Of a stretch of DNA of 64,000 nucleotides, positions 489 to 35,077 are shown in pieces (within the stretch, counting starts at the first letter, position 1; each line of letters starts with the position of its first letter). Under the pieces are notes generated by a model. That model did not search any database. It worked only from the letters and a program-made list of their open reading frames with translations, and had not been told where the DNA came from. A program made the translations under genes and the position numbers. This stretch comes from a virus (taxonomy: Duplodnaviria > Heunggongvirae > Uroviricota > Caudoviricetes): IMG/VR virus record IMGVR_UViG_3300029702_000002; one strand, written 5' to 3'.

Positions 489-489
489 A

Positions 490-1751: not shown

Positions 1752-1760
1752 GTAATGGGA

Positions 1761-2789: not shown

Positions 2790-2906
2790 GTGTTTCTCCT
2801 TGTTGTGATTTGGCCGATGGCGCTATGCGCGTTGGGCTTTCGTTCATTCGTGGCTCTTTCGAGCTGTTAAATGATAGATCAGCACTTACTTATTATCTAT
2901 CAAAAA

Positions 2907-3338: not shown

Positions 3339-3467
3339 TTTTGATAGGTTCCAACTTACTTTAGTGTATTTGATTGTATCAAATAAAAAGAGCTTTACTG
3401 CTATGATTAGCGGTAGACAGTATGGGAGCTAAAGGGCAGAATCAGGGCATAAAGCGAACAGAACAAA

Positions 3468-4448
3468 GTGAGAATAAAATCAATGAATAAAGCTAACAAT
3501 CAAGCAAAAGCAGAAAAGCCTGTGCCGACTAAAGAACTGTCCCCACCCCCAAAAGTTAAGACTGCGAGGTCAGCAGCAGAAAAAAATAAAACTGAAGGCA
3601 TGACATATCCGAAGACCAGCGCAGAAGGACACGCTGGTGAGTACTTATTTGCTTATTGGATTTCTCGTTATTTCAAATGGCCTTGTCGACTGCTGGATAT
3701 TGATATGGGGTTGGATGCACAGGTTGAAATCTATGAAAATGAACTTTCTACCGGTATGTTTATTGGCGTTCAGGTAAAAACCACCTCACGCACAATGAGT
3801 AGTAGTCTAGGAGTACAGATCCCCTATAAAAATTTAAAGTATTGGGGGGAATGCGATTTCCCTATAGTGATCGTTTTAATTTGTCTAAACGAAGATAATA
3901 AGCATGAAGAGCCAGATATTTACTGGCGGCATTTAGACAAACAAACCATCGCATCGTTATCAAGTACAGCGGATTACAATAACTCAGGAAGTACATCAGT
4001 AACATTTAACGAAGACCAATATCTGAAATCTCCAAGGGATAGAGAGAAATGGCTTAGATTATGGCTATCTAGTGAAGATCTGAAGATCATTGAACGATGC
4101 GAAGGTATTGAGAGAAACATTACTGCATTAGGGAAATTCTTTGAAGAAACAATTGTGGACGGGGATTTAAAACAGGGACTACCAACTCTTGATTTTTTTC
4201 GTAATTTAAACGATTTGTTGGACTCATATGATGAGGTGGAATTGGCTATTAGAGGTAACAATCGACTAGAGTATCTATCAGAGGAAGTTAAATCACTTAA
4301 AAAATGTCATGAGCGCTATATGCCTAAAATTATGTATGCCTTTGAACAGGCGTGCGAATCAAATAGTGTCATGATGAGTGATTTCGATCCGTATTCCCCT
4401 ATAAATAATAAACTCCATACTATACTAGTTAATAATAGAATTTATTAA
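3468..4448 (+). CDS. PD-(D/E)xK-like putative nuclease (DUF4365-like), accessory gene
   Basis: 326 aa on the opposite strand to its neighbours; visibly AT-rich; candidate catalytic triad in DIDMGLDAQVEIY...GVQVK (D, E, K spacing typical of PD-(D/E)xK); own terminator directly downstream. Confidence 0.55.
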   Translation: MRIKSMNKANNQAKAEKPVPTKELSPPPKVKTARSAAEKNKTEGMTYPKTSAEGHAGEYLFAYWISRYFKWPCRLLDIDMGLDAQVEIYENELSTGMFIGVQVKTTSRTMSSSLGVQIPYKNLKYWGECDFPIVIVLICLNEDNKHEEPDIYWRHLDKQTIASLSSTADYNNSGSTSVTFNEDQYLKSPRDREKWLRLWLSSEDLKIIERCEGIERNITALGKFFEETIVDGDLKQGLPTLDFFRNLNDLLDSYDEVELAIRGNNRLEYLSEEVKSLKKCHERYMPKIMYAFEQACESNSVMMSDFDPYSPINNKLHTILVNNRIY

Positions 4449-4453
4449 CTAAA

Positions 4454-4484
4454 AGGCCCGTTATATAACGGGCCTGTTTATTAT
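4454..4484. terminator. rho-independent terminator hairpin (bidirectional candidate)
   Basis: aggcccg-ttatataa-cgggcct stem-loop followed by gtttattat on the plus strand; reverse complement is followed by TTTT. Lies between the plus-strand island gene and the DnaE 3' end. Confidence 0.6.
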
Positions 4485-4623
4485 ATTAAGCGACCTTCTT
4501 ACCAAAAATGTTGGATAGCGAGACTCTGGTTTGGCACTTCAGCCTGTACTGTCTTACATCGCCAATCTTGTTTACTTCCATAAACTCTTTTCTCTCTGGC
4601 CACCTTCATGGTGTTCTCTTTGT

Positions 4624-7600
4624 TCATTTGCTAATAGTCTCCGCTACCTCTGCAAGAATTGCTTCCAGCTTTTCGCCTTCCTCTGGGCGAAAGTACAAAA
4701 TATTCGGGTTAAATCCGTAGAAAACGGTCACATCCAGCTCCGGCAGATACTCTTTGCGTCCAACCAGGTCGGATGGTTTGCTCTTGTTGTTGAAGAGCGA
4801 CGTCGCCCGGCTGCCACACGTCAGCACATAGGTCGGATGCACCAGATTGATCTCTTCACGTATAAAGTCGGTGAACTGGCCGATCTCGTCTTTGGTGTAG
4901 TCTTTTTCTTTGTCTTTAACCTTCTTGCAAACGCCTGTGACATAGAGATCGCCCATGCGTAAATCTCCAGCCGTCAATAGCTTGGCCTTAAAATCGTCGT
5001 ATCCGTTCTCCATGAAGTAACCGGTTCGAGCATCATTGCCGTTCGCATTGTCCAGAATGATCATGATTTTCGGCTTAATGCCAATGCTGGGGCGGATTAG
5101 TTCATCACCTAAGCCCATTTCAGCCGCCATCCGTGTCATGAGTGCGTTAATTTCAGCCGATCGTTTGGGGTTCATCTCAAACGGACGTGAGGCTTTAACT
5201 GCGTCTATGACAAGGTTTCCCATCAATTCTGCCTGGTCGCGGAGACGCTCTGGATCAGTTGCTGGCAGACTACCTGGCTCGATGGATGCAAACGCACCTA
5301 CTTTTTGCAGTGATTCGCGCACTCGACTATTACAGGCACGTTTCTCGACAGCTTCTTCGAATTGCGCCAGTGACTCGAATTTGCCGCCAACTTTTTCTCG
5401 CGCTCTCATGATGGCTTGGCAGCCATTCTCAGAACACCCCTTCACAGCAGAGAAGGGCGCATACAGAACCTGGCTGCCATCTTCAAGCGTGCGGATCTCG
5501 ATTCGGTTAGATGACACGTTAACGTCTGGTGGCAATACGCGAATACCATAGGTCAGCGCATCTTTAACCAGCCCTTGGTGTTTATCTTCGCCAAGAATAG
5601 TGAGAGCAGCAGCGAAAAACTCTGCGGGATAATGAGTTTTCAACCACATAGATTGATAACTGATTAAAGAATAAGCAACGGAGTGTGATTTATTGAACTG
5701 ATAGGCTCCGTTTTTCTCAAATGCGGTCCAGATCTCCTTCGCTTTCATCTCTGATAGCCCTGGATGTGACGCTGTAACGCGTACTGCGTTTATAGGTAGT
5801 TTTGCGCCGTGCTCAAGTGCCTCTTCGACAGTTTTCAGAGTTCCGTCTTCGCATTTAAAATGTTCCGCACGGTGAATGCGCTGTGTAGTGCCATCTTCCA
5901 GCTCAACGTCTATCCAGCCAGCTTGAGCCTGAACGATGAACTTCTCGCCCATGCTCTTCATTTTTTCCATGTTCTTCTTACCGATTGCGGAACGCACAGC
6001 GTCAGCTTCAGCCATTGTGAAGCCGGCAAGCAATCGAGTCGCGTTCATCGTCTGTTCCTGATAGAGAATCACGCCATTTGTTTCCGCGGTAAGTTCATCA
6101 AGAACGGGGTGTAATGATTCCGGCGTCATAAAGCCTTTGGCGACAGAAACATAGTCATCCAACATGCCTGATTGAATTGGCCCCGGCCGGAAGAGCGCAG
6201 TTGTAGCGACGACCGTTTTAAAGCTCATTGGCTCAATTCCACCACCTAAATCTTTAAGCAGCTTGCGCATTGGGCCTGATTCAAGCTGGAAAACACCTTG
6301 AGTGTACCCAGCAGCAAAACCATCCAGCACCTTGCGATCTTCAAGAGAAATGGCATCAAGATTGATATCTTCACCTGTGTTCTCTTTTATGTAGCGTTTT
6401 GCACTATCGAGCAAATCGAGAGTTGCCAGGCCAAGCACGTCCAGCTTAATTAGGCCCATAGCCTCGCAGTAACGCTTGTCAAATGCGATACAACGCGCGT
6501 CACCACGGCGCTCAACCGGTGTACGTTCTGTCAGAGGAACACCTGCTACGATCATCCCTGCCGCATGTCTACCAAAGCCACGCATAAGGCTTTGTAACTT
6601 GCAGGCTGCATTGAATGCATCAGGATATTTTGTTGCGTATTTGTCGAGACTTGCCAGTTGTTCGCGCAGCTCTTCCAATGGAAGGCTATCATCCTCGACG
6701 TTCTTCAGTTCTTTTGATACCGCCATATCTGCGGACTCCACACCATAAATACGAGCGGTATCACGTAGTGCAGAGGCTGCGCCCAGGTAGGTGAAGTTCG
6801 GAATACCCGCAACGTAATCTTCGCCGTAGCGTTCATTCAGATACTCGATCACCTCATGGCGACGTGCCTGGCTGAAGTCCAAGTCCGCATCCGGCAAGTC
6901 GAGACGCTCAGGGTTGATGAAACGCTCAAACAGAAGACCGTGACGGATTGGGTCGACGTTGGTTATGCCTATGCACCACGCCACCAGAGAACCGGCAGAG
7001 GAACCACGACCAGGCCCAACGGGAATGCCAGTTTCACGACTATGATTCATCAGATCGCGTACCATCAGGAAGTAACCACAAAATCCCAGGCGAGTCAGCG
7101 TGTCCATTTCGTACTTTAGCCGCTCAACATAAACCCTGTTCTCAGAAGCAGGTGGTGTGTAGCCAAACTCTTTTGTGGTAAGACGTTTACGCAGCCCTGC
7201 AACAGCCAGTTTCATAAGCGTTGCAGGCTCGTCGTCTGCCATCTTTGGCAGTGCTGGCGGCAATTCATGCCAGCGCCATGTGCAGGCATCGATAATGGTA
7301 TCCTGCGTTGTTGAGGCCATTGCAGCTGTTACCGGCACATCCATGCGAACGGAGAAGGCTTTAAGCGCCTCAAGGAGATGGCGGCGACCATTGACGGCGT
7401 TATCTCGCTGGTGGGGGATACGCAGACGATGCGGCTGGTCGATTTTGATGTTGTTCGTAACCATGTGCGCAATGTCTTTAATGTCTGCATCGTCGATCGA
7501 TTCGTAATAAGCGGGATAGAACGCCACTGGCTCTATTTTCAATGCGCTGGCGACTTTCATCGCCCGGACGTTAATCTGGTCGTAGAATGGGGTAGGGTGC

Positions 7601-8322: not shown

Positions 8323-9558
8323 TTAACCAAATATTTTTTGAACAACTTCACGAGCCGCTTGTGCAGAAGCTGAAGGGAGTTTGTTAATGAAAGAACGCTC
8401 AATACCTGTCACAAAGTCGCCTCGCATCATTCCAATCTTGGCCGACAACAAAAGTTCACGAGGGCCAATTGGCTGACTGATAAGGTGTTCTTCGTATCCA
8501 TCGCGAACGATACCGGCAAACTTAACCATCTTTTCTGCGTATTCATCCACGATACCGGCATTTATCAACATGTTGATCTCTGCCTCTTTGCTCATGTATT
8601 TCACATTCGAAACGATGCCAAAACGCGAAAAGTTCGCGGCGTTCTGGATGTTTGTACCCTGGTACAAGCCGGTTTCATCACCAGATCCGTTCGTGTTGCC
8701 AGTGCCAATGAAAGCAAACCGTTCATGCGGAGTAATGCGACGCCATTCTGGAGTCGCCTCTTTGATGACCAACGCTTCACCTTCCAGCACTGGCTGATAC
8801 ACGCCAAGAATCTGTGGAAACGCAAAGTCGTATTCATCCGCGAGGTAAACCCAGCCATGCTTCATTGCGAGCGCAAGCAAGCCAGGCTCGAAATACGTAG
8901 AGCCATCACGCGCCAGAATTTGTCCCGTAACATGAGCCTCTTCCATTGATGCTGTATGTTGGGCACGGATTAACGGACGATTGAGCAAAGCACATAGTTG
9001 TGTAGGCAATGAAGATTTGCCTGTTCCTGCATGACCCCACAAATAGCCAGGTATGCCAAGTTCAAGCATCATGAAAATGTCTTTGATCAGTTCGAAGTCG
9101 CCATATACGTATCCCTTCTTCACTTCTGGAACGAACTCTGGAAACGGCGTATTGACGTTGACGCTAACCATGAGCGGCGTCCCACGTTTTGTTCCGAGTT
9201 CTTTCACCGTTACATTTAGCAGTTCGTGAGCTGCGACCAGATCTGTCTTGTACTCAACTGTGCCTGTGTAGCCTGGGCTACTGGTCACGCCAGATGATTT
9301 GGCCATTTCGCTTTTTTGCTCGGCACGTTTAGCTTGAATTGCATCAAGTGCCTTTTTCGATAGCGTTGGCTCATCTGGAAACTGTGTTGTGTACATTTTC
9401 AGTACGGTGTCAGGATCGGCATCTTTTACTGACTCAGGAATGCCCTCGCAATTACCATTGGCTACATGGGACTTAAAATAGTGAAATGATTTTCCGCACC
9501 ACTTGCAAACAAGGTAATCAGAAGGATTTTTTTCATTTTGCAGTGCAGTAGTAGTCAT
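8323..9558 (-). CDS. AAA+ ATPase, MoxR/CobS-like, with N-terminal zinc-finger-like motif
   Basis: 411 aa; Walker A GHAGTGKSS; Walker B-like VYLADEYD; N-terminal CKWCGKSFHYFKSHVANGNCEG. Confidence 0.7.
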   Translation of the reverse strand: MTTTALQNEKNPSDYLVCKWCGKSFHYFKSHVANGNCEGIPESVKDADPDTVLKMYTTQFPDEPTLSKKALDAIQAKRAEQKSEMAKSSGVTSSPGYTGTVEYKTDLVAAHELLNVTVKELGTKRGTPLMVSVNVNTPFPEFVPEVKKGYVYGDFELIKDIFMMLELGIPGYLWGHAGTGKSSLPTQLCALLNRPLIRAQHTASMEEAHVTGQILARDGSTYFEPGLLALAMKHGWVYLADEYDFAFPQILGVYQPVLEGEALVIKEATPEWRRITPHERFAFIGTGNTNGSGDETGLYQGTNIQNAANFSRFGIVSNVKYMSKEAEINMLINAGIVDEYAEKMVKFAGIVRDGYEEHLISQPIGPRELLLSAKIGMMRGDFVTGIERSFINKLPSASAQAAREVVQKIFG

Positions 9559-9653
9559 GCGTTTTTCCTTTGTTTTCTAATGAGCGTTCAACTTCTTATA
9601 TAAATATATCATTATCTATCGTAAGTGGTTACTTATCGTTAAGGCTGTTTTGT

Positions 9654-18214: not shown

Positions 18215-19533
18215 TCTTTATCTCCGATTCGATCTTCGGTATCGCGTAAGCAACGCGGCCATTTCAGTCGTGGGTGGCGTAAGCTGCCGTCCGGTGTTTT
18301 CTCGTGACAATGAACCTCAACAATACGACCACGGTACTTCTCTTTGTTGTTCCAGATCTCGTCCAGATATTTATGCTTAATACCGCTCGCACGAACGATG
18401 ACGCCGTTTTCAAGACGAATAACAATTTTTCCAAGTGTGTTGGCAAAACCAGAGTCCGGGTCGCCCGGCTCAAAGTCGATAATTTCACCATCTTCTGAAT
18501 CTTCGTCTTTTAACTTCCACCAGCTGCGGGTACGTTTAAACTCGTAAACAGAGTTCGGATCTTTGCCCATCTCCCCTTCTTCGTTATCGTCCAGGCGTTT
18601 CATGAAGCGTTCGATGAAGTCTTCGTGGCTATGGATGATATAGAACGGATGCAGGTGAATGTCTTGTGTGTAGCCTTCACTGCGATCGTTTTTGAACAAC
18701 GCCACCAGCATAGCCAGGCGCTCTTTCAGCTTCATACCTGTCTTTGCATACTCTTTGGATTTAGCCTGTGCTCGCCATTCCGGTAGGAAGAAGTCGAAAA
18801 CATGATAAATAGCGCCAATTGCCTGCACGTTCTTTTTGCGCAATGCAGATACGGACTGGTTAAATGAACCGGCAGTTCCTTCACCATCGAAGAAGATGTG
18901 TTTGTGGCCTGAAAGTTTGCCTAATTCGAGCATGGCTGGCTTTAGGTGATCGAGAGACGTGATTGGATTACCAGTACGAGAAAGGAAGTTAACCTCTTCC
19001 TCGTCAACAATAACCTCGCAAATTACTCGCAAACCATCGAGCTTAAGACTGCCAATCATCGGCCATTTTGCTTTAGGATTTGGCTTGAAGGGGTATTTGT
19101 CGCCTTTTTCTTTATACGGTGACGCCAGCTGCACCTCGAATTTCGGAATGGGATTTTCAAAAACCTTGTTGCATAGGCTAATCCCAACGCCAGCTTTCGG
19201 GTCTTTTAAGAGGAAACGACGGAACACGTCCTGCCCATCGGCGCACATTGACGCCACGATAGACTCAACAGCTGCTATTGCTGCGTTCCCCGTTAGCTCG
19301 CGAGAGGCCAGCTTATTCAGTACATCAATGGCTTTTTCGTCACTTGGGATGGACTCACTAAGCGGCTCTGCCACTTTGTATTTCTTTACCCCAAAACGGA
19401 TGAAAGGGTTGAGCATCAATGAAACCATGCTTTGTTCAAAGTCATCCATGTTGGCCAATGCCTCTTTTTTTGCATTGGTTCCCATAGCTTTCATTTCGTC
19501 CAGCTTATGCTTAAGTGCGATCAACTTTTTCAT
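18211..19533 (-). CDS. ATP-dependent DNA ligase
   Basis: 440 aa; motif I adenylation site SLKLDGLR (KxDGxR); motif III-like FFDGEGT. Confidence 0.7.
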   Translation of the reverse strand: MKKLIALKHKLDEMKAMGTNAKKEALANMDDFEQSMVSLMLNPFIRFGVKKYKVAEPLSESIPSDEKAIDVLNKLASRELTGNAAIAAVESIVASMCADGQDVFRRFLLKDPKAGVGISLCNKVFENPIPKFEVQLASPYKEKGDKYPFKPNPKAKWPMIGSLKLDGLRVICEVIVDEEEVNFLSRTGNPITSLDHLKPAMLELGKLSGHKHIFFDGEGTAGSFNQSVSALRKKNVQAIGAIYHVFDFFLPEWRAQAKSKEYAKTGMKLKERLAMLVALFKNDRSEGYTQDIHLHPFYIIHSHEDFIERFMKRLDDNEEGEMGKDPNSVYEFKRTRSWWKLKDEDSEDGEIIDFEPGDPDSGFANTLGKIVIRLENGVIVRASGIKHKYLDEIWNNKEKYRGRIVEVHCHEKTPDGSLRHPRLKWPRCLRDTEDRIGDKE

Positions 19534-20012
19534 TGTTGTTTTGCCTCCATATGTTGATCGATTTGCTCATGTGTTTTTTTTGTTGTTTCTTCAAGCAACG
19601 CCGCATACACGTCAGTGATCGCTGTTTGTGATGTGGCGCTCTTCTTAACCATGCTATTAATCGTTACACTGTCACGTTTTCGTTTTATAGTTCTGGCTTG
19701 TTTATTCCGTTCTTCAACCTCCTTAATGAGCGCGGTCATATCTTCGAAATACAGAGATTCTCCTTTACGAATCTCTTCAACCATCATTTTTAACGCCTTG
19801 CATTTGCCTGCTTTGATAGCGGTTGCGCACGACTGGAATGAAGTTCGAGGAAGACGGTTTTCTTTGAAGGCAAGAATGGTGTGCTGGCAAACGGAGTAGC
19901 TGCAATATGCCGACTCACCGTTTATCTTTACTTCCTCACAACGAAGTGAATAACCATTATTTCCTGAAATAGAGGGGATTTTTGACAAATCAGCTTTCAC
20001 AACTACCGCCAT
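19530..20012 (-). CDS. hypothetical protein (160 aa)
   Basis: ORF track; coupled to the ligase gene (4-nt overlap); Cys-containing N-terminal half, basic C-terminal half. Confidence 0.45.
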   Translation of the reverse strand: MAVVVKADLSKIPSISGNNGYSLRCEEVKINGESAYCSYSVCQHTILAFKENRLPRTSFQSCATAIKAGKCKALKMMVEEIRKGESLYFEDMTALIKEVEERNKQARTIKRKRDSVTINSMVKKSATSQTAITDVYAALLEETTKKTHEQIDQHMEAKQQ

Positions 20013-20067
20013 AAATAATCTTGTACTTACCTATCGTTATTTGCGTAAAAAACGACGCGCGGAGAGA

Positions 20068-20844
20068 TTACCAACTTCCCCAGCTAATCATCTTGCGCTG
20101 ATCGCTTTCTAAGCGATAAGGGGCAAGAAGCTCTGTGACATGATTGGTGGCGTATGATTTAGCCTCTTGCTTAATCATCGGTAATTCGTTAGCAATCCTG
20201 ACCATCTTCCCAGCAAATTCCGCCATTACGCCATCACAAGCCTTCCCCGCATCAACAACGATATGCACAAGATCCAACTGGCTTTTGCACATATCCCAAA
20301 GAGACGCGTATTCACTCTCTCTGATTACATTTACGGCACTATTAGCCCCTTTATTAATCAAAACTTCCAACAGATTTTTCGGGGTAACGAAATCTGCTTT
20401 CAGAGATAATGTCTTTTCACCACTTATCGAACGCAAGTACTCTTCGTAGTTATTCTTCATCAAACCGCTGCTGCGCATTGCTAGAACTGCTTCTTGAATG
20501 GCCGCTTCAATAGTTTCGTCGTTTGAAAGACAAAAAACGGTATTTGTGTAGATCACTCTGCCATCAAGCCATGCTCCAACCTGCACTTTAAGACTGAGCG
20601 GGTTTTCTTTGCTAATAAAAACAACTAATGCAGAACGCCGTGCACAAGAAGGTTCGCCCCATACGTGTAACTCAACTTTCAGATAAGGCAACCCTGGTAG
20701 CGGGATCTCGTCCATACGAGCAGCGATATGATTCATTGCTGTATTGACGGCCTTTCCAATGATGTCTAGTCGACTGCCCTCGCTGATTTCTAAACCTGTT
20801 TTATCAATGATGTCACAGGCCAATTTCTGAATTTCGTCTTTCAT
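20068..20844 (-). CDS. hypothetical protein (258 aa)
   Basis: ORF track; no motif recognised. Confidence 0.5.
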   Translation of the reverse strand: MKDEIQKLACDIIDKTGLEISEGSRLDIIGKAVNTAMNHIAARMDEIPLPGLPYLKVELHVWGEPSCARRSALVVFISKENPLSLKVQVGAWLDGRVIYTNTVFCLSNDETIEAAIQEAVLAMRSSGLMKNNYEEYLRSISGEKTLSLKADFVTPKNLLEVLINKGANSAVNVIRESEYASLWDMCKSQLDLVHIVVDAGKACDGVMAEFAGKMVRIANELPMIKQEAKSYATNHVTELLAPYRLESDQRKMISWGSW

Positions 20845-20886: not shown

Positions 20887-20906
20887 TAAGTATGTATCTA
20901 CTTATC
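20887..20906. promoter_or_regulatory. intergenic motif TAAGTA-N6-TACTTATC upstream of gene 20068..20844
   Basis: Motif-family member about 40-60 nt upstream of the minus-strand start at 20844. Confidence 0.4.
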
Positions 20907-20969
20907 ATTTTAGGCGCAATAGTTCCCTATACGAAGATGCCGGGCTTATAGTCTGCCCGGCATTCACCA

Positions 20970-21383
20970 TTAATGAGCTACAGCCTCACTGTTGCACATC
21001 TTTCTGTAGACCTGCTTATAACGCTGTAAGTCATGAGGATCATTAGGTGCCAACGACTTCGATAGGATTTTGTATACCACCCCTTTCGAAAACATGCCCT
21101 TTGGCTTCATTTCGAGTTCAACAACATATGAGTGATAGCCCACGTATGCACCAAAGCCATTTTTGGCGTTTAATTCACCACACACAAAGCCTGTCACACT
21201 CCCATCGTCATGATCAGTCCTGACAAACTTATCTTTCCTAAACATCACCGACGTGGGATCTTTCATGTCATCCGCAATGGCCTGTTGGCCCAGAGTAATA
21301 GCCTTCTCGTCTGTAGGCTTACACCCAACTAATGCAAACAAAGACAATAAAGCACCTGTTAAAATCAGCTTCTTTTTGCTCAT
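20970..21383 (-). CDS. lipoprotein (137 aa)
   Basis: Signal peptide MSKKKLILTGALLSLFALVGC with lipobox LVGC. Confidence 0.6.
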   Translation of the reverse strand: MSKKKLILTGALLSLFALVGCKPTDEKAITLGQQAIADDMKDPTSVMFRKDKFVRTDHDDGSVTGFVCGELNAKNGFGAYVGYHSYVVELEMKPKGMFSKGVVYKILSKSLAPNDPHDLQRYKQVYRKMCNSEAVAH

Positions 21384-21570
21384 TTTGACTTCCCTTTATT
21401 TATATTTATCGTAGGTATTAGTTAACCAAAACACGAGCAGTGTCACAATAATTCCATAACTTATTATTTCCACTAGTGATTAATACCACATCAACTTTAC
21501 GGTTCATAAATTAAATTATCAAAGCTGACAGATTAACTAAATTTAAGTACCCTTTTCGCACACTTGACGC

Positions 21571-22761
21571 TTGCCGCGTCTAAACTGTTCATCCTATATC
21601 AACAGAATAAAAAACATGAAATACATAAAATCTTCTTCGTTGCTGGCATTAACTTTGCTTTTTAGCTCTGGATTCGTTAACGCAGACAATAAACAAACGT
21701 TGATAGAAGCCGCTACCGCAGGTGATACCGCAGCACAAAGTGAGTTAGGGACAAATTATTTGGATGGTGTCAATGGTTTTGATAAGGATGTAGTTGAGGC
21801 AAAGAAGTGGATTGATCTCGCTGCAGAAAAGGGAGATAAAGTAGCATATTATGCACTTGGAGTTATGTACACATTTGGCGAGGGTGTAGATAAAGACCTA
21901 AATAAAGCTGTTGAGTACTACAAACTTGCGGGGGATGCTCGTGAAGGTAGAGCCTACAACAATCTTGGTGCTATTTATCAAAAGGGGATGCTTGGTAAAG
22001 TAGATCATGCACTCGCCATTAAATACTTCAAACTAGCCTCTGATGTCGGGTATGTTAAAGCAACTTCAGTTCTTGGGGCGTATTACCAATATGGTAAAGG
22101 CGTTAAAAAGAATTATAAAAAGGCTTTTACTTATTACAAAAAGGCGGCAGACCAAGGCAGTTCAGAAGCTATGATAGGATTAGGAATACTATACGATGAT
22201 GGGTTAGGCGTTAAACGCAATGATGCAGAAGCAGTTAAGTGGTATAAAAAGGCAGCGGAACTTGGAAACGCCGACGCCATAACCAATCTTGGCATTATGT
22301 ATGAGAATGGGGAAGGTGTAAAAAAGGACTATAAAAAAGCAGCCGACCTTTATCAGACTGCTTGCAATAAAGGAGAAAAAAGAGGCTGTGAATACATTGC
22401 TGAACTGAAAGAAAGCGGAAAATATCGAGTATCTGATTCCAAAGCCAAATCAAAATCAGATGTACAGCGACTTATTGCTAAATCCATTGATAAAGGCGTT
22501 AACGCAACATTTACCTGGCAGGGTGATGATGCCGTCTTCACCGCTAATGATGGCAAAGTTGACTGCACCTTCTTGAAGGATTTTTCAGAGAAAGGAGGCA
22601 ATCTGGCTACCTCGTTTGTTTGCACCGATAACGTTCAAATCATCCTGAAGCAATTCAGAGATACCAAGAATGCCTACCTCGCGGTAATGACTGACAACTT
22701 CAACACAGAAGTTAAATCATTTTCGGTCAATGTTTACGTGACTAATACTGGTTCAAACTAA
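21571..22761 (+). CDS. secreted Sel1-like repeat (SLR/TPR-like) protein
   Basis: 396 aa; N-terminal signal peptide (LLALTLLFSSGFVNA); about six tandem 36-aa Sel1-type repeats with recurring A..W..KAA..G...A...LG..Y..G.GV..D pattern; about 120-aa unrelated C-terminal domain. Confidence 0.7.
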   Translation: MPRLNCSSYINRIKNMKYIKSSSLLALTLLFSSGFVNADNKQTLIEAATAGDTAAQSELGTNYLDGVNGFDKDVVEAKKWIDLAAEKGDKVAYYALGVMYTFGEGVDKDLNKAVEYYKLAGDAREGRAYNNLGAIYQKGMLGKVDHALAIKYFKLASDVGYVKATSVLGAYYQYGKGVKKNYKKAFTYYKKAADQGSSEAMIGLGILYDDGLGVKRNDAEAVKWYKKAAELGNADAITNLGIMYENGEGVKKDYKKAADLYQTACNKGEKRGCEYIAELKESGKYRVSDSKAKSKSDVQRLIAKSIDKGVNATFTWQGDDAVFTANDGKVDCTFLKDFSEKGGNLATSFVCTDNVQIILKQFRDTKNAYLAVMTDNFNTEVKSFSVNVYVTNTGSN

Positions 22762-24006
22762 TGCTGCTATACCTTTTACCTTGCTTAAAAGTTCAAGCTG
22801 TCGTGAGTAAGGTTTTGCGCAATAGTAGGCTTTGATAATCTGCCCCGGTGTCGCATCGCCGGGGTCGAGTCCTTCCTCGCCCAAACACGCAACTTTGACA
22901 TTAAGACCAATACTTGTGAGTCGCCTGGCTGCGGCCATAGTGTTGCGTATAGCTTGCTTTTCACTATCCCACATCATGATCACATTACGTAATCCACGCG
23001 CCTTGAGCGTCAGGAACGCGCCCAGCTGATCTTCTGCATCCTGAGTGGTGTTGCCAGATAGATGCATCCCGAACGTTCCTATTGGTTCCACGTAATCACG
23101 TAATGTTTCTTCGTCAAAAATAGCTCGTTTGACCCCCATAACATCGAACGCCCCCTCACAGACAACTACCGTCTGTTTGCCGACTGCATTATGGCCGTTG
23201 TAGAGAAACTTACCTGAAGCTGGAAGCTGCATAGGAAAGAGGTAGCGACGTTCTGCTGTACCGGTAATGTCTCGTCCCTGAAATGTCTTCATTACCCCAT
23301 CCAGATCGTAAACCGGTATGAGTATTCGCATATCGAATATCTGTCCTTTTACCTGATCTGTATACGGATCTACATAGGCGTGTTTGCCTTCGACGCAGTA
23401 TCGTAGGTCAAAATACTTTGCCATTTCAGGCGATATGTTTCGTTCAACCAGATAGTCTGGAAGACGGCCATCTATAGGCAGTTCGTAATGACGAGGGAGG
23501 GCAACTGGTCCCTCTAACTCGACTGTGCTTGCAAGCACTATCTCTTCTTTCTTTGGTGTCCATCCCTGAGAAAGAAGGGCGTTCTGCACATATTCTTCGA
23601 ACTGTCGCCGTGATTTACCGCTGTAGTGCTTGAGGAACACCAGCTTATTAAATTGTATTTCTTCAGGATGGTCGCCAGCGAAACATTTACCCACACCACT
23701 GGTCAGATTGAAATATACCTTCCAGTTGGAGCTGCCGCATACCGGACACTCCTTGATATTCACTTCACGACCGCGAGCACTCACGCCTCCGCGCCGATAA
23801 ATGATACCTTCAGTGTCCAACCATTGTTCAAAATCTAATTCGGTAATTAGCTCTTTCAGCTCGCTCACGATAATTCCACTTTTAACAGGCAATATTGTGA
23901 CCAACCTAAATGTTGATATAACATAAAGGCTCATGTGTTTTTCTTTTGTGGTTTGGCAAAAGAAAAGTTGTTTCACCAATGAATCAAGCGTGGAGGCGTT
24001 CTCCAC
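22753..24006 (-). CDS. DNA primase (DnaG-like: zinc finger + TOPRIM)
   Basis: 417 aa; zinc-binding CPVCGSSNWKVYFNLTSGVGKCFAGDH; TOPRIM-like VVVCEGAFDVMGV and MMWDSE acidic motifs. Confidence 0.7.
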   Translation of the reverse strand: MENASTLDSLVKQLFFCQTTKEKHMSLYVISTFRLVTILPVKSGIIVSELKELITELDFEQWLDTEGIIYRRGGVSARGREVNIKECPVCGSSNWKVYFNLTSGVGKCFAGDHPEEIQFNKLVFLKHYSGKSRRQFEEYVQNALLSQGWTPKKEEIVLASTVELEGPVALPRHYELPIDGRLPDYLVERNISPEMAKYFDLRYCVEGKHAYVDPYTDQVKGQIFDMRILIPVYDLDGVMKTFQGRDITGTAERRYLFPMQLPASGKFLYNGHNAVGKQTVVVCEGAFDVMGVKRAIFDEETLRDYVEPIGTFGMHLSGNTTQDAEDQLGAFLTLKARGLRNVIMMWDSEKQAIRNTMAAARRLTSIGLNVKVACLGEEGLDPGDATPGQIIKAYYCAKPYSRQLELLSKVKGIAALV

Positions 24007-26422: not shown

Positions 26423-27190
26423 ATGGACGATTTATCGGTATACGCGAGATCATTGGATAAGGCTAAATACTATGTTTACTGTCTCTATGATACAGAAGAC
26501 AAGATGAAAAGACCGTTTTACATAGGAAAAGGCAAATCGACTCGTTGTCTCGATCACATCAAGTATCCCGATGACTCTCCCAAATCCATGCGGATCAAAG
26601 AACTTTTGGCTAATAAAAAATTAGGCATAGATATACTTCGTCATGGTATGGATGAAACCACAGCCAAACTTGTTGAGGCGACATGCATCGACCTTATGGG
26701 GGTCGGAGAGCTTACGAATAAGGTACGAGGAAGTGGTTCCATGATGGGCAGAATATCACTGGACGCCTACCATCACTTAGTGCTGCAAGAGGAAACTGAA
26801 ATTGCTCCTGAGCACGCCGGTCTTGCCTTCCTGCTAAACAGCACCTACAAGTCAGGAATGTCCGCTCTGGCATTATATGAAGCTACGCGTGGCGTATGGG
26901 CAAAGGTTCCAAGAGACGAGAATCTCAAATATGCCTACGCTACATATGGTGGGCTGATAATGGAAGTTTATCAGATTGAATGCTGGGTCAAAGCCGGTTC
27001 TCAGCAGTACTTTACAAGGGATATAGCTCTTGGCCCCGACACAAAACGTTATGAATTTGTTGGCAGAATAGCCGATGAGCATATTAGAAAACTGTATGTA
27101 GGCAAATTAATCAAGAAGCCACCAAGCTACGGTAGCCCTTTTGTGAAGGTTGGGGTGGTTAGGACTGAACATAGTGTTAGCGCGGCATAA
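26423..27190 (+). CDS. GIY-YIG nuclease-domain protein
   Basis: 255 aa; N-terminal KYYVYCLYDTEDKMKRPFYIGKGKSTRCLDH matches the GIY-(10 aa)-YIG ... R ... H catalytic pattern; plus-strand, own terminator. Confidence 0.65.
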   Translation: MDDLSVYARSLDKAKYYVYCLYDTEDKMKRPFYIGKGKSTRCLDHIKYPDDSPKSMRIKELLANKKLGIDILRHGMDETTAKLVEATCIDLMGVGELTNKVRGSGSMMGRISLDAYHHLVLQEETEIAPEHAGLAFLLNSTYKSGMSALALYEATRGVWAKVPRDENLKYAYATYGGLIMEVYQIECWVKAGSQQYFTRDIALGPDTKRYEFVGRIADEHIRKLYVGKLIKKPPSYGSPFVKVGVVRTEHSVSAA

Positions 27191-31039: not shown

Positions 31040-34000
31040 TCAGTTACTTGTTGCCCCAACAGTACCTGCAAATTTCAGCCATTGACCTGACGGACTTCTA
31101 TTACTACGGTAGTGATAAACGAGGATTGCGTTTGTAACTCCACCGTAGTCAGCTTTATGTGACGTTGTTAAACGAATTGTATAATCACCGTTAGGTAGAT
31201 TAAAAACTTCGATTATAGATTCTGCTAATTCTACAGCACCAAATCCCGTTATATTGTTGATACTGCCAGCATTGAATCCCATAGCATCGCCAAAGCCAAT
31301 CCAATAACTTTTGCTAAACGCCCCATTTGATTTTAGGTGGCTAATGAATGCGGACAAGCTCATGCCCATATCCCCACCTGAAACAGAGGAAGTTCGCACA
31401 GTCATGCTTGGAAGAGCACTGCTCTTCACATAGGAACTTAGAAGGTTTGTTACCTCTGTTTTCGTGTAAGCATTAAGGTTAGCCGCAGTCAAAGTTATAT
31501 CGGCAGAGCCATCAAACGCCACACCAGCAATTTTCCTTGCTGTCTGCAATTTTGTGGCGGTTGCGGCATTACCAGTAGTGTTCTGATTACCAGTTGTATT
31601 CACACCAGGGATTGAATCCTTAGCGGTATATACCTGCGCCCACGCTGACCATGCCGCACCTGTGTTATCTCTTCGTGAGCGAATGAAAACTGGCGCATGT
31701 GCACCGCTCGTACCACTCCAGCCAATAAGCAACTCTCCCTCACCAGCAGCACTCGCACCTTTCATGTGCAATACGTTGCCATACATGGTCGGGTAGCTAT
31801 TGTTGTACGCCTCATACATTTGAATGCCAGCAGTGCCTTGAGTAGAGCCGCTTAACGCCGTAACTCGGCCACGAGATACCAATGTATTAATATTGATATC
31901 GCCTGAACCATCAAACTTAACACCATTGATGTTTCTCGCTGTTTGCAACTTCGTAGCTGTTGAAGCATTACCGTTCAAACTACCATTTACGCCACCAGTC
32001 ACATTTAGTCCATTACCAATTGATACAGCACCGCTGGTATTATTAATTGTAATAGGTCGCAAACCGTTCCATGAACCTAATGTGTCTCCTGATGCTGTTA
32101 GCATGAAATATGTGTTCGATCCATCATTACGGATAAAGAACCCAAAGCTACCGTAAGCAATGCGGAAACCATTTGCATATTTTGAAATGATCTCGCCAGA
32201 AGATGTCAAACCTCCAGATAATGTACCACCGGTAAGAGGTAATGCACCGACATCAGAGGCTGTTGGTTTGTTTTTCGTGTTATATACTCTTCGCCATCCT
32301 GGAGAATAATCTGTGCCATTAAATACATAGATAAACTCCGCATTAGTGAGAGCACCGGAAACACTTGTCGTTGTGGCCGTTGTTATGCGGATCGTATAAT
32401 TATTTGAACTACTACCGTTATTAAATACTTCTATAACAGCTCCTGCCAATGGAATAACGCCACAACCAGTTTCACTATTTGGTATGGTTGCGCTATTGGC
32501 ATAGGCCCACGCACATCGAGCAATCCATGCCTTTGTGTTAAAGGCTCCATTATTTTGCAATAACGTCACTAACTGGGCTGTTGTTATTGCTCCGCCATTA
32601 CTTCCTGTAGTTAACCAACCAGTAGGAGATGCTGGGCAACCTATATTTGCTGGTGACAAGGAAATATTTGCCGAACCGTCAAACGACACCCCATTAATAG
32701 TACGCGCAGTCTGCAACTTCGTAGCAGTAGCCGCATTACCTGTTGTATTCTGATTACCAGTCGTATTAACACCTGGCAAATTAATATTTGCAGTACCATC
32801 AAAGCTCACGCCGCCGATAGTTCTTGCCGTCTGTAGTTTTGTAGCAGTTGCGGCATTACCAGTGGTGTTCTGATTACCCGTAGTGTTTACACCTGGAAGA
32901 TTAATATTGGCAGAACCGTCGAAACCAACTCCACCGATAGATCTTGCCGTCTGTAATTTCGTTGCTGTAGCAGCATTTCCTGAAAGACTTGAAATAAATG
33001 GATGTGAACAGTAATAACCTCGTCCATTTTTAAAGTCCAAAATTATCTGTGCATTCGTACTTTCTGATAAAGGATCAGTTGCCCCCCACTTATAAGTGGT
33101 TTGACCAACTGCATAATCAGCCGTTGGAACAATCACATTTAATCCTTCCTCAGCAAAAATCTGGATAGGGAATGCTCTTGTCTCAACGTAAAATACACTA
33201 CACAAATCATCATCTTTCACGCTTGCGATAATCGAGTGTATAGATCGTTCAACGGTTGAATATATTGAGAAAAAACCAACAGCATATGAACCGCGATCAG
33301 ACCAACCGCCCGGCATAACAAAACCATTAAACTCACAATTATTCATAGCGTATCCGCCAGCTGAGGAATAAGTGGTGATAACCACTCGTGAGGCTAATTC
33401 ATCTGTGCCACCACCAGTTCGGCGAAAGACTACAGGATACCACTTACCGCTTACTGCATTTGCAGGAGCAGAGAAAGTGTATTTTCGCATCCCCTTTTTC
33501 TTATCCACTTCACCTTTGCTGTAAACATTAATGTTATTCAGGAAGCGGCCCTTGTCGGGGATATCAGCACCATTCTGATCCTTCTGTAGTCTTTTTTCAG
33601 CATTATCATATGCGGCCTTAACTGCTTTTGGCGTTGCGGCCAGCGATTCACTGGTGCTATCGACAGCACTGCTAAGTTTCACAACACCTTTAGTTGTAAG
33701 GCTTGCGTCTTCCATCGCAACTGCACCGGCAATCTCTTCAGCACGATCAGCAGCAGCTTCCGCACGGGTCGCAGCGGATTCAGCAGCAGTTTTGCTCTGA
33801 GATGCTGCCGTCGCACTGCCTGCCGCCTCTGTTGCTTTCGTGGATGCTGTCGTGGCGCTGCCCTTCGCTGCGGACGCTTGTCTGGTCGCCTCATCTTTTG
33901 AAGCAGACGCCGATGATGCCGATGACGCTGCCGAACTGGCGGACGATGCGGCTGCCGTTTTTGAGGATTCTGCACGGGTTTCCGACGCTTTCGCGTTCGT

Positions 34001-35077
34001 TTCGGATGTCTTCGCTGCGGAAGCAGACCTCGCTGCTGCGCTGGCCTGTTCAGTGGCTTCGCCAGCCTTCGTTGTGGCTGTTGAAGCAGACGATGCGGCA
34101 CTTTCTGCCGATTTTCCGGCGGCGGTGGCACTGGCTGAGGCCTGCCCGGCACTTGTTGACGCGGCACTGGCAGACGACGCAGCCGCTGTTTTTGAGCCTG
34201 CCGCAGCCGAAGCGCTCTGTCCCGCTGCCGTTTCAGAAGACCTGGCGTTCGTCTCGGACGTTTTTGCCGCCTTCGCGGAATTTCCTGCCGCCGTTGCCGA
34301 GGAAGCGGCATTACTGGCGCTCGAGGCTGCGCTCGTTTCTGATGATTTCGCTGCCTCTTTTGAGGCCGCCGCATCCCGGGCTGAGGTGGCAGCTTCTGAC
34401 GCTTTCGTGGTCGCGGTGGATGCAGAAGTGGCTGCTGATTGTTGTGACGCTGCGGCATTCGTTTCAGATTTTTTCGCAGCAGTTGCACTCGCACTTGCGG
34501 CACTTTGTGAGGATGCCGCAGCGGATGCACTTTGAGACGCTTGAGAGGCTTTTTCTCCAGCGGTATTGGCGCTTTCTGCTGCTGCGGCAGCACTGGCCGC
34601 CGCCTCACGAGCTTTGTCGCCAGCAGCATCAATCGCGTCAGTGTTATTTTTATACCACTCAACGTTTTCGTTGTGCTCGTTGACGATCTGCATTAGCGGC
34701 TTAACGGTTACTTCTGTACCGTCTTCACGCTCGATTGTCACCTCATCCAGAGCAGTCAACCAACTGCGCATAGACTTGGAATCAGCCGACATACGCGACA
34801 TTAGTGCTGTAAAGCGCGCGCTAAACTGTGTTAAGTCGCCTTCATAGGTCGTAATGATTCGGCACGGAACCTCAGACTGAGTTTCGCCGGTATAAGGTTC
34901 TGAGAGAACAATATTCGTATCGCTTATTACGCGCTTGATCTCATACAGCTTATTGTCGGGGCCAATGACGATCATCCCCGGCAACACACCATTAGCTGTT
35001 ACGTTCCAGGCTGTCCCTGCCCCAACCAGAGTATTGCTACCCTGTGTAAATGTGATAGTACCTTCCCTGTACCACAT
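31040..35077 (-). CDS. tail fiber protein (side tail fiber type) with Ala/Ser-rich fibre repeats
   Basis: 1345 aa; about 300 aa of SETxAxxSxxAA-type low-complexity repeats; four to five copies of NTTGNAATATKLQTAR.I.GV.FDGSA.I.LPGV. Confidence 0.75.
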   Translation of the reverse strand: MWYREGTITFTQGSNTLVGAGTAWNVTANGVLPGMIVIGPDNKLYEIKRVISDTNIVLSEPYTGETQSEVPCRIITTYEGDLTQFSARFTALMSRMSADSKSMRSWLTALDEVTIEREDGTEVTVKPLMQIVNEHNENVEWYKNNTDAIDAAGDKAREAAASAAAAAESANTAGEKASQASQSASAAASSQSAASASATAAKKSETNAAASQQSAATSASTATTKASEAATSARDAAASKEAAKSSETSAASSASNAASSATAAGNSAKAAKTSETNARSSETAAGQSASAAAGSKTAAASSASAASTSAGQASASATAAGKSAESAASSASTATTKAGEATEQASAAARSASAAKTSETNAKASETRAESSKTAAASSASSAASSASSASASKDEATRQASAAKGSATTASTKATEAAGSATAASQSKTAAESAATRAEAAADRAEEIAGAVAMEDASLTTKGVVKLSSAVDSTSESLAATPKAVKAAYDNAEKRLQKDQNGADIPDKGRFLNNINVYSKGEVDKKKGMRKYTFSAPANAVSGKWYPVVFRRTGGGTDELASRVVITTYSSAGGYAMNNCEFNGFVMPGGWSDRGSYAVGFFSIYSTVERSIHSIIASVKDDDLCSVFYVETRAFPIQIFAEEGLNVIVPTADYAVGQTTYKWGATDPLSESTNAQIILDFKNGRGYYCSHPFISSLSGNAATATKLQTARSIGGVGFDGSANINLPGVNTTGNQNTTGNAATATKLQTARTIGGVSFDGTANINLPGVNTTGNQNTTGNAATATKLQTARTINGVSFDGSANISLSPANIGCPASPTGWLTTGSNGGAITTAQLVTLLQNNGAFNTKAWIARCAWAYANSATIPNSETGCGVIPLAGAVIEVFNNGSSSNNYTIRITTATTTSVSGALTNAEFIYVFNGTDYSPGWRRVYNTKNKPTASDVGALPLTGGTLSGGLTSSGEIISKYANGFRIAYGSFGFFIRNDGSNTYFMLTASGDTLGSWNGLRPITINNTSGAVSIGNGLNVTGGVNGSLNGNASTATKLQTARNINGVKFDGSGDININTLVSRGRVTALSGSTQGTAGIQMYEAYNNSYPTMYGNVLHMKGASAAGEGELLIGWSGTSGAHAPVFIRSRRDNTGAAWSAWAQVYTAKDSIPGVNTTGNQNTTGNAATATKLQTARKIAGVAFDGSADITLTAANLNAYTKTEVTNLLSSYVKSSALPSMTVRTSSVSGGDMGMSLSAFISHLKSNGAFSKSYWIGFGDAMGFNAGSINNITGFGAVELAESIIEVFNLPNGDYTIRLTTSHKADYGGVTNAILVYHYRSNRSPSGQWLKFAGTVGATSN
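33680..34640. repeat. low-complexity GC-rich coding repeat region (Ala/Ser-rich fibre repeats)
   Basis: Repetitive gc(n)gc codon periodicity; produces long spurious ORFs on both strands in the ORF track. Confidence 0.7.

What the first reader, a model, noticed from the sequence alone, without database searches (positions are those of the whole stretch)
20970..22761. Divergent lipoprotein and secreted Sel1-repeat protein pair inside the replication region
A 137-aa lipoprotein (lipobox LVGC) and a 396-aa signal-peptide protein with about six Sel1-like repeats plus an unrelated C-terminal domain share an AT-rich divergent promoter region. Envelope-targeted proteins encoded by phages often mediate superinfection exclusion or host-surface modification.
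Basis: partly seen in the sequence, partly recalled or inferred. Interest (0 to 1): 0.5.

Follow-up and report, generated by a model that had tools for sequence, protein, structure and literature searches.

The report
Two exported accessory genes in phage-plasmid
Between the primase and the next replication gene of an E. coli SSU5-type phage-plasmid sit two accessory genes that come and go independently, an outer-membrane lipoprotein from a large uncharacterised prophage family and a periplasmic Sel1-repeat protein; both exist as described, but their function, possibly blocking other phages at the cell envelope, is untested.

Summary
Window 20970-21383(-) encodes a 137-aa lipoprotein precursor (lipobox LVG|C). 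Window 21616-22761(+) encodes a signal-peptide protein with six Sel1 repeats and a C-terminal ~97-aa domain. It is most likely 381 aa from the ATG, not 396 aa from the TTG. The 232-bp spacer is 31.9% GC.

The window is an E. coli SSU5-like phage-plasmid. The two genes form a 1.87-kb insert (20906-22777) that is absent from phage Cyrano and present in 62 of 5,426 complete E. coli genomes, always on plasmids.

They are not an obligate pair. Related phage-plasmids carry neither gene, the lipoprotein only, the Sel1 protein only, both, or other cargo at this site.

The lipoprotein belongs to a large family with no Pfam or NCBIfam model. All 12 contexts inspected gene by gene are phage or prophage, mostly in accessory-gene ("moron") slots. 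These include the slot that holds the HK97 gp15 exclusion gene. Its model is a cystatin/NTF2-like domain.

The Sel1 gene is a recombination mosaic: divergent central repeats, identical C-terminal domain.

Superinfection exclusion is plausible for the lipoprotein by context only, and nothing supports it specifically for the Sel1 protein. This is a new member of a known kind, of moderate interest.

The parts
20906..22777 (.). 1,872-bp accessory segment: lipoprotein gene, spacer and Sel1 gene. Phage Cyrano has about 39 bp here instead.
   Evidence: BLASTN against Cyrano: homology ends at 20905 and resumes at 22778. GC is 40.4% against 46.3% for the window. Found in 62 of 5,426 complete E. coli genomes, all on plasmids.
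20937..20963 (-). Terminator-like hairpin just downstream of the lipoprotein gene: 9-bp perfect GC-rich stem ATGCCGGGC/GCCCGGCAT, 9-nt loop, weak U tract.
   Evidence: An equivalent GCCCGGC hairpin follows the lipoprotein gene in the pHCM2-like and Cronobacter relatives.
20970..21383 (-). Lipoprotein precursor, 137 aa. The mature part is a cystatin/NTF2-like alpha+beta domain.
21321..21383 (-). Signal peptide and lipobox (aa 1-21, MSKKKLILTGALLSLFALVG-C). Lys at +2 predicts Lol sorting to the outer membrane.
   Evidence: Read from the sequence. Cys21 is kept in at least 90% of 75 aligned relatives. At least 186 of 257 fetched family members pass a strict lipobox pattern, and Lys is the commonest +2 residue.
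21384..21615 (.). AT-rich (31.9% GC) divergent intergenic spacer. Presumed promoters are not demonstrated. It contains an imperfect inverted repeat at 21501-21518 / 21534-21551.
   Evidence: It is 97% identical to the ETEC plasmid spacer although the Sel1 gene beside it is divergent.
21616..22761 (+). Secreted Sel1-repeat protein, 381 aa. Its last 9 nt overlap the 3' end of the convergent primase gene.
21616..21684 (+). Sec-type signal peptide, aa 1-23, predicted cleavage VNA|D.
   Evidence: Read from the sequence. Conserved in the ETEC and E. cloacae orthologues.
21721..22377 (+). Six Sel1-like repeats (aa ~36-254), followed by a capping helix with a C-x7-C pair.
   Evidence: PF08238, 6 stretches, E=8.4e-53. 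PDB Sel1 proteins match down to E=2.6e-91. The ETEC and E. cloacae versions have 7 repeats.
22468..22758 (+). C-terminal domain (aa 285-381) with two conserved Cys. Predicted to be a small 8-stranded beta-barrel (tentative).
22753..23868 (-). DNA primase (flanking gene, not part of the module). Its last residues run into the inserted segment.
20068..20844 (-). phrog_4248 protein of unknown function (flanking gene). It directly follows the primase in Cyrano.

Best explanation
SHOWN. These are two separate accessory genes ('morons') parked in a cargo hotspot just downstream of the primase gene of an SSU5-type phage-plasmid. Both products carry the sequence signals for export to the cell envelope.

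1. The 137-aa protein has the signals of a lipoprotein cut by signal peptidase II, and Lys at +2 predicts outer-membrane sorting. Only about 4 residues separate the lipidated Cys from a compact alpha+beta (cystatin/NTF2-like) domain. That domain has two near-invariant cysteines (C68, C130, a probable disulfide) and a conserved hairpin, VCGxVNAKNxFGAYxG. It belongs to a very large uncharacterised family found mostly in prophage accessory slots.

2. The 381-aa protein has a Sec signal peptide, a six-repeat Sel1 solenoid (a protein-binding scaffold) and a conserved small C-terminal domain.

INFERRED.
- The lipoprotein, expressed from the resident element, sits on the periplasmic face of the outer membrane. 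There it binds a protein partner and interferes with the envelope-crossing step of incoming phages (tail-tip penetration or DNA entry). That would be superinfection exclusion with the logic of T5 Llp, Cor or HK97 gp15, but with an unrelated protein.
- The Sel1 protein acts independently as a periplasmic binder or inhibitor of a variable target. Its swapped central repeats suggest that the target differs between alleles.
For: Element and insertion:
- The region is 100% identical to E. coli plasmid pRHB14-C22_3.
- The flanks are 92% identical to phage Cyrano, which lacks the segment.
- GC is lower than the surroundings and a terminator-like hairpin follows the lipoprotein gene.

Independence. 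The same site shows five states:
- empty;
- lipoprotein only, in pHCM2-like, Cronobacter and E. hormaechei elements;
- Sel1 only, in E. cloacae pG6809-1;
- both;
- sulfatase cargo.

Export:
- lipobox and signal peptide;
- conserved Cys pairs;
- family members fused to the peptidoglycan-binding domains SPOR, SH3 and PG_binding_1.

Family size:
- 1,311 clusters at 50% identity;
- at least 4,772 clusters at 90% identity.

Phage association. All 12 contexts inspected gene by gene are phage or prophage:
- after ogr at the end of P2-like prophages;
- between the tail chaperone and the tape measure;
- between tail genes K and I;
- beside the CI-type repressor;
- after the primase (this window).
The commonest neighbours across 80 species genomes are tail L, K and tape-measure genes, Ogr and S24 repressors.

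Precedent: the chaperone/tape-measure slot is where the HK97 gp15 exclusion moron lies (PMC3594210).

Selection and mosaicism:
- purifying selection on both genes;
- the Sel1 central repeats are saturated at synonymous sites (pS 0.79), while the C-terminal domain is identical at nucleotide level between two E. coli plasmids.
Against: - There are no functional data of any kind.
- Neither protein matches a known exclusion or defence family.
- Promoters are not shown, and expression in the plasmid state is unknown.
- Morons in the same kinds of slot also encode virulence or fitness factors (lambda lom and bor; PMC3594210).
- More distant family members have mixed, partly non-phage neighbourhoods.
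- A chromosomal Pantoea orthologue of the Sel1 protein has no evident phage context.
Confidence: 0.4

Rival explanations
1. Lysogenic-conversion factors aimed at the animal host or general fitness rather than at phages. The lipoprotein would act like lambda Bor, giving serum or stress resistance.
For: - The best-scoring solved relatives of the Sel1 part include 4bwr (the C5321 protein of E. coli CFT073, which I recall as EsiB; E=8.1e-64), 6deh (deposited only as a 'TPR repeat protein', which I recall as a Legionella protein) and 1ouv, which I recall as Helicobacter HcpC.
- The carrier plasmids come from gut, urine and blood isolates of many animals.
- Moron-encoded outer-membrane proteins Lom and Bor serve the host (PMC3594210).
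- A Pantoea chromosomal orthologue lies outside any evident prophage.
Against: - The similarity to those proteins is confined to generic Sel1 repeats.
- A Sec signal peptide alone takes the protein only to the periplasm, and no secretion system lies nearby.
- The closest relatives of the lipoprotein are embedded in phage tail and immunity modules, not in virulence islands.
Confidence: 0.2
2. A cooperating peptidoglycan-hydrolase control pair. The periplasmic Sel1 protein would inhibit a lytic transglycosylase or lysozyme-like enzyme, host-encoded or carried on a phage tail, and the outer-membrane lipoprotein would modulate it. This is how IltA (Sel1) and LiiA (lipoprotein) control MltF in Pseudomonas aeruginosa.
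For: - IltA/LiiA sets the precedent (PMC10746161).
- Lipoprotein family members are sometimes fused to SPOR, SH3 or PG_binding_1 domains.
- The element's own tail tip carries an NlpC/P60 peptidase, gpK.
Against: - The two genes occur independently in related elements.
- LiiA is a two-domain protein with a helical N-terminal domain and an OmpA-like C-terminal domain, unlike this cystatin-like lipoprotein.
- No Pfam family, MliC/PliC included, matches the C-terminal domain at E<=0.1.
- The barrel model has low confidence.
Confidence: 0.1
3. Orphan immunity proteins that protect the lysogen against toxins acting in the periplasm, such as colicin M-type bacteriocins or type VI peptidoglycan-targeting effectors.
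For: - Cor also protects against colicin M (PMC3594210).
- The allelic mosaicism of the Sel1 repeats would fit variable toxins.
Against: - The fold scores are low and generic.
- No toxin or effector gene family appeared among the 25 commonest neighbour families listed for each of the three batches covering 80 loci.
Confidence: 0.1
4. Helpers in the element's own lytic cycle. They might mask receptors on lysed-cell debris so that progeny are not wasted (the second role of T5 Llp), or tune envelope breakdown at lysis.
For: In relatives without the Sel1 gene, the lipoprotein gene lies 32-44 bp after the primase on the same strand. It is therefore probably transcribed with the replication genes.
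Against: - Many infective relatives (Cyrano, SSU5, PhiR41_1) lack both genes.
- Family members in other prophages sit beside the repressor or at the prophage end, positions typical of genes expressed during lysogeny.
Confidence: 0.1

Closest known systems
HK97 gp15 moron (superinfection exclusion, inner-membrane protein)
   Same: It is an accessory gene with its own signals, inserted into a phage operon. [quoted passage not shown] The product is a small envelope protein.
   Different: gp15 is a YebO-like inner-membrane protein, not a lipoprotein. No sequence relationship was found. In this window the gene sits in the replication module, not the tail module.
T5 Llp and Cor (phi80, N15, HK022): outer-membrane lipoproteins that block FhuA-dependent phages
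   Same: They are small phage-encoded lipoproteins, often encoded among tail genes, that protect the carrier cell.
   Different: There is no sequence match: tblastn against 50,697 phage records returned none of T5, T1, phi80 or N15, and the PHROGs matches have unknown function only. The fold here is cystatin/NTF2-like. The receptor of this element is unknown.
IltA/LiiA of Pseudomonas aeruginosa (PMC10746161)
   Same: A periplasmic Sel1-repeat protein together with a predicted outer-membrane lipoprotein. The Sel1 protein binds and inhibits a periplasmic enzyme.
   Different: IltA has 3 repeats and no beta-barrel. LiiA has a helical domain plus an OmpA-like domain. Those genes are unlinked chromosomal genes. 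Here the two genes are adjacent but come and go independently. No homology beyond the Sel1 repeats was shown.
Bacterial Sel1-like repeat proteins with solved structures (4bwr, 6ok3, 6deh, 1ouv)
   Same: Sel1 repeats score strongly, down to E=2.6e-91. Several of these are signal-peptide proteins, as this one is.
   Different: The strong scores come from the repeats and do not show orthology. Within the sequences examined, the C-terminal domain was found only in a small group of Enterobacterales proteins.
Cystatin / NTF2 / VirB8-like folds; small 8-stranded barrels (PliC/MliC, DUF4251, Cap15)
   Same: Overall topology of the two predicted domains.
   Different: Identity is only 4-18%. The cystatin QxVxG motif is absent and the Pfam MliC model does not match, so this is resemblance at fold level only.

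Membership tests
Bacterial lipoprotein (signal peptidase II substrate) | N-terminal positively charged region, hydrophobic core, and lipobox [LVI][ASTVI][GAS]C within about the first 35 residues. | tested here: met
   MSKKK-LILTGALLSLFA-LVG-C21. Cys21 is kept in at least 90% of 75 relatives.
Bacterial lipoprotein (signal peptidase II substrate) | Actual lipid modification and outer-membrane sorting (no Asp at +2). | not testable with these tools
   The +2 residue is Lys, which predicts outer-membrane sorting. This needs globomycin or palmitate labelling and cell fractionation.
Sel1-like repeat family (Pfam PF08238) | Several tandem ~36-residue Sel1 repeats scoring above the Pfam gathering threshold. 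| tested here: met
   175.4 bits against a cut-off of 30.7, E=8.4e-53, 6 stretches. PDB Sel1 proteins match down to E=2.6e-91.
Moron (Juhala/Hendrix sense) | Extra DNA lying between genes that are adjacent in related phages. | tested here: met
   In Cyrano the primase and the phrog_4248 gene are 75 bp apart. Here 1,872 bp intervene.
Moron (Juhala/Hendrix sense) | Base composition different from the surrounding genes. | tested here: met
   40.4% GC against 44-48% in the flanks and 46.3% in the window.
Moron (Juhala/Hendrix sense) | Own promoter and terminator, allowing expression from the repressed prophage. | tested here: inconclusive
   A GC-rich hairpin follows the lipoprotein gene and is conserved in relatives. 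Promoter-like sites are no more frequent than chance. The Sel1 gene has no terminator and ends inside the primase gene. There are no expression data.
Known superinfection-exclusion and defence families (Cor, Llp, Sp, Imm, SieA; PADLOC systems) | Sequence or profile similarity to a member. | tested here: not met
   All PHROGs matches have unknown function. PADLOC gives nothing for the lipoprotein and only a below-threshold match (PtuA, E=1.2e-05, 0 stretches) on a Sel1 repeat. tblastn against the phage collection returns none of T4, T5, T1, phi80 or N15.
Cystatin family (protease inhibitors) | Cystatin fold plus the QxVxG hairpin and sequence-family membership. | tested here: not met
MliC/PliC lysozyme inhibitors (Pfam PF09864) | Match to the family model and its conserved loop motifs. 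| tested here: not met
[quoted passage not shown] | The Sel1 protein binds the catalytic domain of a lytic transglycosylase, and the lipoprotein partner binds the Sel1 protein. | not testable with these tools
   This needs binding and activity assays. The architectures differ and the two genes occur independently, which argues against an obligate pair.

The most novel reading that the evidence does not exclude
The lipoprotein would represent a large, unrecognised class of phage-encoded exclusion proteins. It would be an outer-membrane-tethered, disulfide-stapled cystatin-like inhibitor whose conserved VCGxVNAKNxFGAYxG hairpin blocks a periplasmic step of siphophage entry. Candidate targets are the NlpC/P60 peptidase of the tail-tip protein gpK, or the tape-measure protein. 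That would explain why the gene is so often inserted next to exactly those tail genes. The Sel1/barrel protein would be a second, allele-specific periplasmic inhibitor.
Probability: 0.15. Interest if true: 0.7.

Novelty: new member of a known kind. Interest (0 to 1): 0.38.

Why it matters
SSU5-like phage-plasmids are common in E. coli, Salmonella, Enterobacter and Cronobacter, and some carry resistance genes; pECOH89, which has this module, encodes CTX-M-15 (title seen). Knowing what their variable cargo does bears on their host range and persistence.

The more general value is the lipoprotein family:
- It has thousands of members across Alpha-, Beta- and Gammaproteobacteria.
- It has no Pfam or NCBIfam model.
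- Its structural model is confident.
- It recurs in the same prophage slots that hold known exclusion genes.

A single plating experiment could assign a function to all of them. As it stands, the finding is a well-described but functionally untested pair of accessory genes, which is ordinary for a temperate phage.

Tried and rejected
1. Obligate two-gene system: rejected. Related elements carry the lipoprotein only or the Sel1 protein only.

2. The 396-aa TTG start: not preferred.

3. Known defence or exclusion families: searched in PADLOC, PHROGs, Pfam and NCBIfam with no assignment. The PtuA match is a spurious hit on a Sel1 repeat.

4. Sequence search of solved structures for the lipoprotein: only a chance TPR match, E=0.57.

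5. BFVD fold search: only uncharacterised phage proteins. AFDB50 was unavailable.

6. A second copy of the lipoprotein in the window: none found with a family HMM.

7. Diversifying selection in the Sel1 repeats: not supported. dN/dS is below 1 wherever it could be measured, and the divergent block is saturated at synonymous sites. This is a recombination mosaic.

8. Divergent promoters: the consensus scan is no better than shuffled sequence.

9. Literature on these genes in SSU5, pHCM2 or pECOH89: nothing found.

10. The word-indexed homology search with single sequences gave only 5 hits each. The profile searches were needed.
Full report
**What is there**

Window 20970-21383(-) is a 137-aa ORF that starts MSKKKLILTGALLSLFALVG|CKP.
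- It has a charged start, a hydrophobic core and an L-V-G-C lipobox.
- An AAGGGAAG ribosome-binding site precedes it.
- A perfect 9-bp GC-rich hairpin (20937-20963) follows it.

The ATG at 21616 (381 aa) is the better start.
- It gives a canonical signal peptide, MKYIKSSSLLALTLLFSSGFVNA|D.
- It is the start annotated in GenBank and RefSeq records.
- phrog_8741 aligns end to end with the 381-aa form.

Pfam finds six Sel1 repeats (E=8.4e-53). The last ~97 residues match no family. The 232-bp spacer is 31.9% GC against 46.3% for the window. Promoter-like hexamers there are no more frequent than in shuffled sequence.

**What the element is**

The region is 100% identical to E. coli plasmid pRHB14-C22_3 (108,954 bp). 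Its flanks are 92% identical to Escherichia phage Cyrano and 79% identical to Salmonella phage SSU5.

The window carries:
- a replication module: 5'-3' exonuclease, gp32-like protein, Pol III alpha, ligase, primase, DnaB-like helicase and ParA;
- a lambda-like tail: tape measure, L, K with JAB and NlpC/P60 domains, I, J and a fibre.

It is an SSU5-type phage-plasmid.

**The two genes are cargo, and they are separable**

Against Cyrano, homology stops at 20905 and resumes at 22778. The window has 1,872 bp where Cyrano has about 39 bp. The segment is 40.4% GC. It occurs in 62 of 5,426 complete E. coli genomes, never on a chromosome.

Related elements show every combination at this site:
- Nothing: Cyrano, pLF82 and many other plasmids.
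- Lipoprotein only: pHCM2-like Salmonella contigs, Cronobacter and E. hormaechei AKB48. The gene lies 32-44 bp after the primase on the same strand.
- Sel1 protein only: E. cloacae pG6809-1, a 417-aa orthologue at 53% identity with no lipoprotein gene. By the same C-terminal-domain match, about 30 Enterobacter and Citrobacter plasmids carry a Sel1 orthologue; only pG6809-1 was checked for absence of the lipoprotein.
- Both: the type seen in this window.
- Unrelated cargo: a sulfatase, its maturase and an IS element.

The replication enzymes are 88-94% identical between these lineages. The lipoprotein is only 60-62% identical and the next gene 42%. This is a fast-changing hotspot. The 'divergent pair' is best read as a Sel1 gene inserted, in the opposite orientation, between the primase and an older resident lipoprotein gene.

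**The lipoprotein family**

Pfam, NCBIfam and PADLOC find nothing. PHROGs gives phrog_2320 and six other families, all of unknown function.

Size of the family:
- An exhaustive HMMER search finds 1,311 cluster representatives at E<=0.001.
- A profile search finds at least 4,772 clusters at 90% identity.

Conserved features:
- D42, C68, G69, N72, N75, Y80 and G82 are invariant.
- C21, K41, P43, S45, F48, K74, G78 and C130 are near-invariant.
- These give the motifs LKDPxSAxF and VCGxVNAKNxFGAYxG, plus a probable C68-C130 disulfide.
- At least 72% of fetched members pass a strict lipobox pattern.
- A minority are fused to SPOR, SH3 or PG_binding_1 domains.

Structure:
- AlphaFold2 on a 75-sequence alignment gives pLDDT 86.8. 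The elements are helix 25-37, four antiparallel strands and helix 116-130.

**Where the family lives**

All 12 contexts I inspected gene by gene are phage or prophage:
- after ogr at the end of P2-like prophages;
- between tail genes K and I;
- beside the CI/S24 repressor in Pseudomonas prophages;
- after the primase in SSU5-like elements (this window).

A pattern scan of one genome per species returned 330 relatives in Alpha-, Beta- and Gammaproteobacteria. I scanned the two nearest genes on each side of the best 80 loci.
- The commonest families were tail protein L, K (NlpC/P60 and JAB), tape measures, tail chaperones, Ogr/Delta, gpD, S24 repressors and Mu GemA/Mor.
- The most distant third had mixed neighbours: resolvases, toxin-antitoxin genes and housekeeping genes.

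The chaperone/tape-measure slot is where the first named moron, HK97 gene 15, lies. Its product blocks DNA entry of superinfecting phages (PMC3594210).

**The Sel1 protein**

The repeats match many solved Sel1 proteins, but that reflects the repeats rather than orthology.

The C-terminal domain:
- It has two conserved cysteines.
- It was found only after Sel1 repeats in the intact homologues (three other hits are N-terminally cut products): in E. coli, Enterobacter and Citrobacter SSU5-like plasmids, in an E. kobei prophage-like region, and in a Pantoea chromosome, where the gene is split into two ORFs.

Between this window and an ETEC plasmid the gene is a mosaic:
- residues 1-105 are 87% identical;
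- the central repeats are 56% identical, with synonymous sites saturated and one repeat more or fewer;
- the C-terminal domain is identical at nucleotide level;
- the promoter-side spacer is 97% identical.

So alleles of the binding solenoid are exchanged by recombination. dN/dS stays below 1 where it could be measured.

**Mechanism**

Shown:
- both products carry export signals;
- both are accessory, separable and under purifying selection;
- the lipoprotein belongs to a family carried largely by prophages.

Inferred:
- The lipoprotein is tethered by about 4 residues to the inner face of the outer membrane.
- It uses its conserved hairpin to bind a partner.
- The most likely effect is to hinder entry of other phages. 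This rests on gene position only, and I put it at about 0.4.

For the Sel1 protein the best-grounded statement is 'periplasmic protein binder with exchangeable specificity'. In the one paper I read, a periplasmic Sel1 protein inhibits a peptidoglycan hydrolase: IltA on MltF, with a lipoprotein anti-inhibitor (PMC10746161). The independent distribution of the two genes here argues against a cooperating pair.

The rivals remain open: host-directed conversion factors, orphan immunity to periplasmic toxins, or a role in the element's own lytic cycle.

**Verdict**

This is a real and accurately described feature, an ordinary kind of thing (phage accessory envelope genes) with untested function. The added value is threefold:
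- the pair is not a unit;
- the site is a cargo hotspot;
- the lipoprotein belongs to a very large uncharacterised prophage family with a confident fold and a testable hypothesis.

Noticed in passing
window 20906-22777 site; L012 (NZ_CP046008.1) 1-5000: The site downstream of the primase is a cargo hotspot in SSU5-like phage-plasmids. In p1919D62-2 it holds a sulfatase, an anaerobic sulfatase maturase and an IS4-family transposase instead of the two genes studied here.
   Followed up: partly
window 19530-20844 (- strand): The two genes after the lipoprotein are only 42% (phrog_4248, 258 aa) and 65-68% (160 aa) identical to their pHCM2-like and Cronobacter counterparts, while the flanking ligase, primase and helicase are 88-94% identical. 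In E. cloacae pG6809-1 the phrog_4248 homologue is split into two ORFs. Function unknown.
   Followed up: partly
window 21616-22761 compared with L014 2262-3515: The Sel1 gene is a recombination mosaic. The central repeats are as divergent between two E. coli plasmids as between E. coli and E. cloacae, and differ in repeat number (6 or 7). The C-terminal domain is identical at nucleotide level.
   Followed up: yes
window 15001-16800: A low-GC island (30.4% GC over 15001-16000) holds a + strand ORF, 15244-16152 (302 aa), with no Pfam match. Three tRNA genes follow (Ser-TGA, Thr-TGT, Asn-GTT at 16331-16783). This may be another accessory gene.
   Followed up: no
window 3468-4448 (+) and 26423-27190 (+): Other genes oriented against the mainly leftward genome: a DUF4365 protein between the gp32-like gene and Pol III alpha, and a LEM-3-like GIY-YIG protein next to the helicase block. 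Both are candidate cargo or defence genes.
   Followed up: no
window 8323-11762 (- strand): An AAA_5 (MoxR-like) ATPase and a CobT/VWA protein sit as a pair inside the replication module.
   Followed up: no
L011 5357-6597 (Pantoea MAG, JAPWKD010000019.1): A chromosomal orthologue of the whole Sel1/barrel protein is split into two ORFs: signal peptide plus repeats, then the last repeats plus the barrel. This is a frameshift, a pseudogene or an assembly error. The neighbours show no phage genes.
   Followed up: partly
plasmids NZ_CP051133.1 about 57.3 kb, CP067064.1 about 86.4 kb, NZ_CP132001.1 about 75.1 kb: E. hormaechei SSU5-like plasmids carry a distant (30-31% identity) member of the lipoprotein family at a different position from the primase site.
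   Followed up: no
window 21501-21551: An imperfect 18-nt inverted repeat (78% complementary, 15 nt between the arms) lies in the AT-rich spacer. It could be an operator or could be chance in AT-rich DNA. One arm loses 5 bases in the ETEC plasmid.
   Followed up: partly
window 33679-34683: A GC-rich stretch (56% over 34001-35000) inside the 1,345-aa tail-fibre gene has several long overlapping ORFs on both strands. This is probably a compositional effect of a repetitive fibre segment.
   Followed up: no
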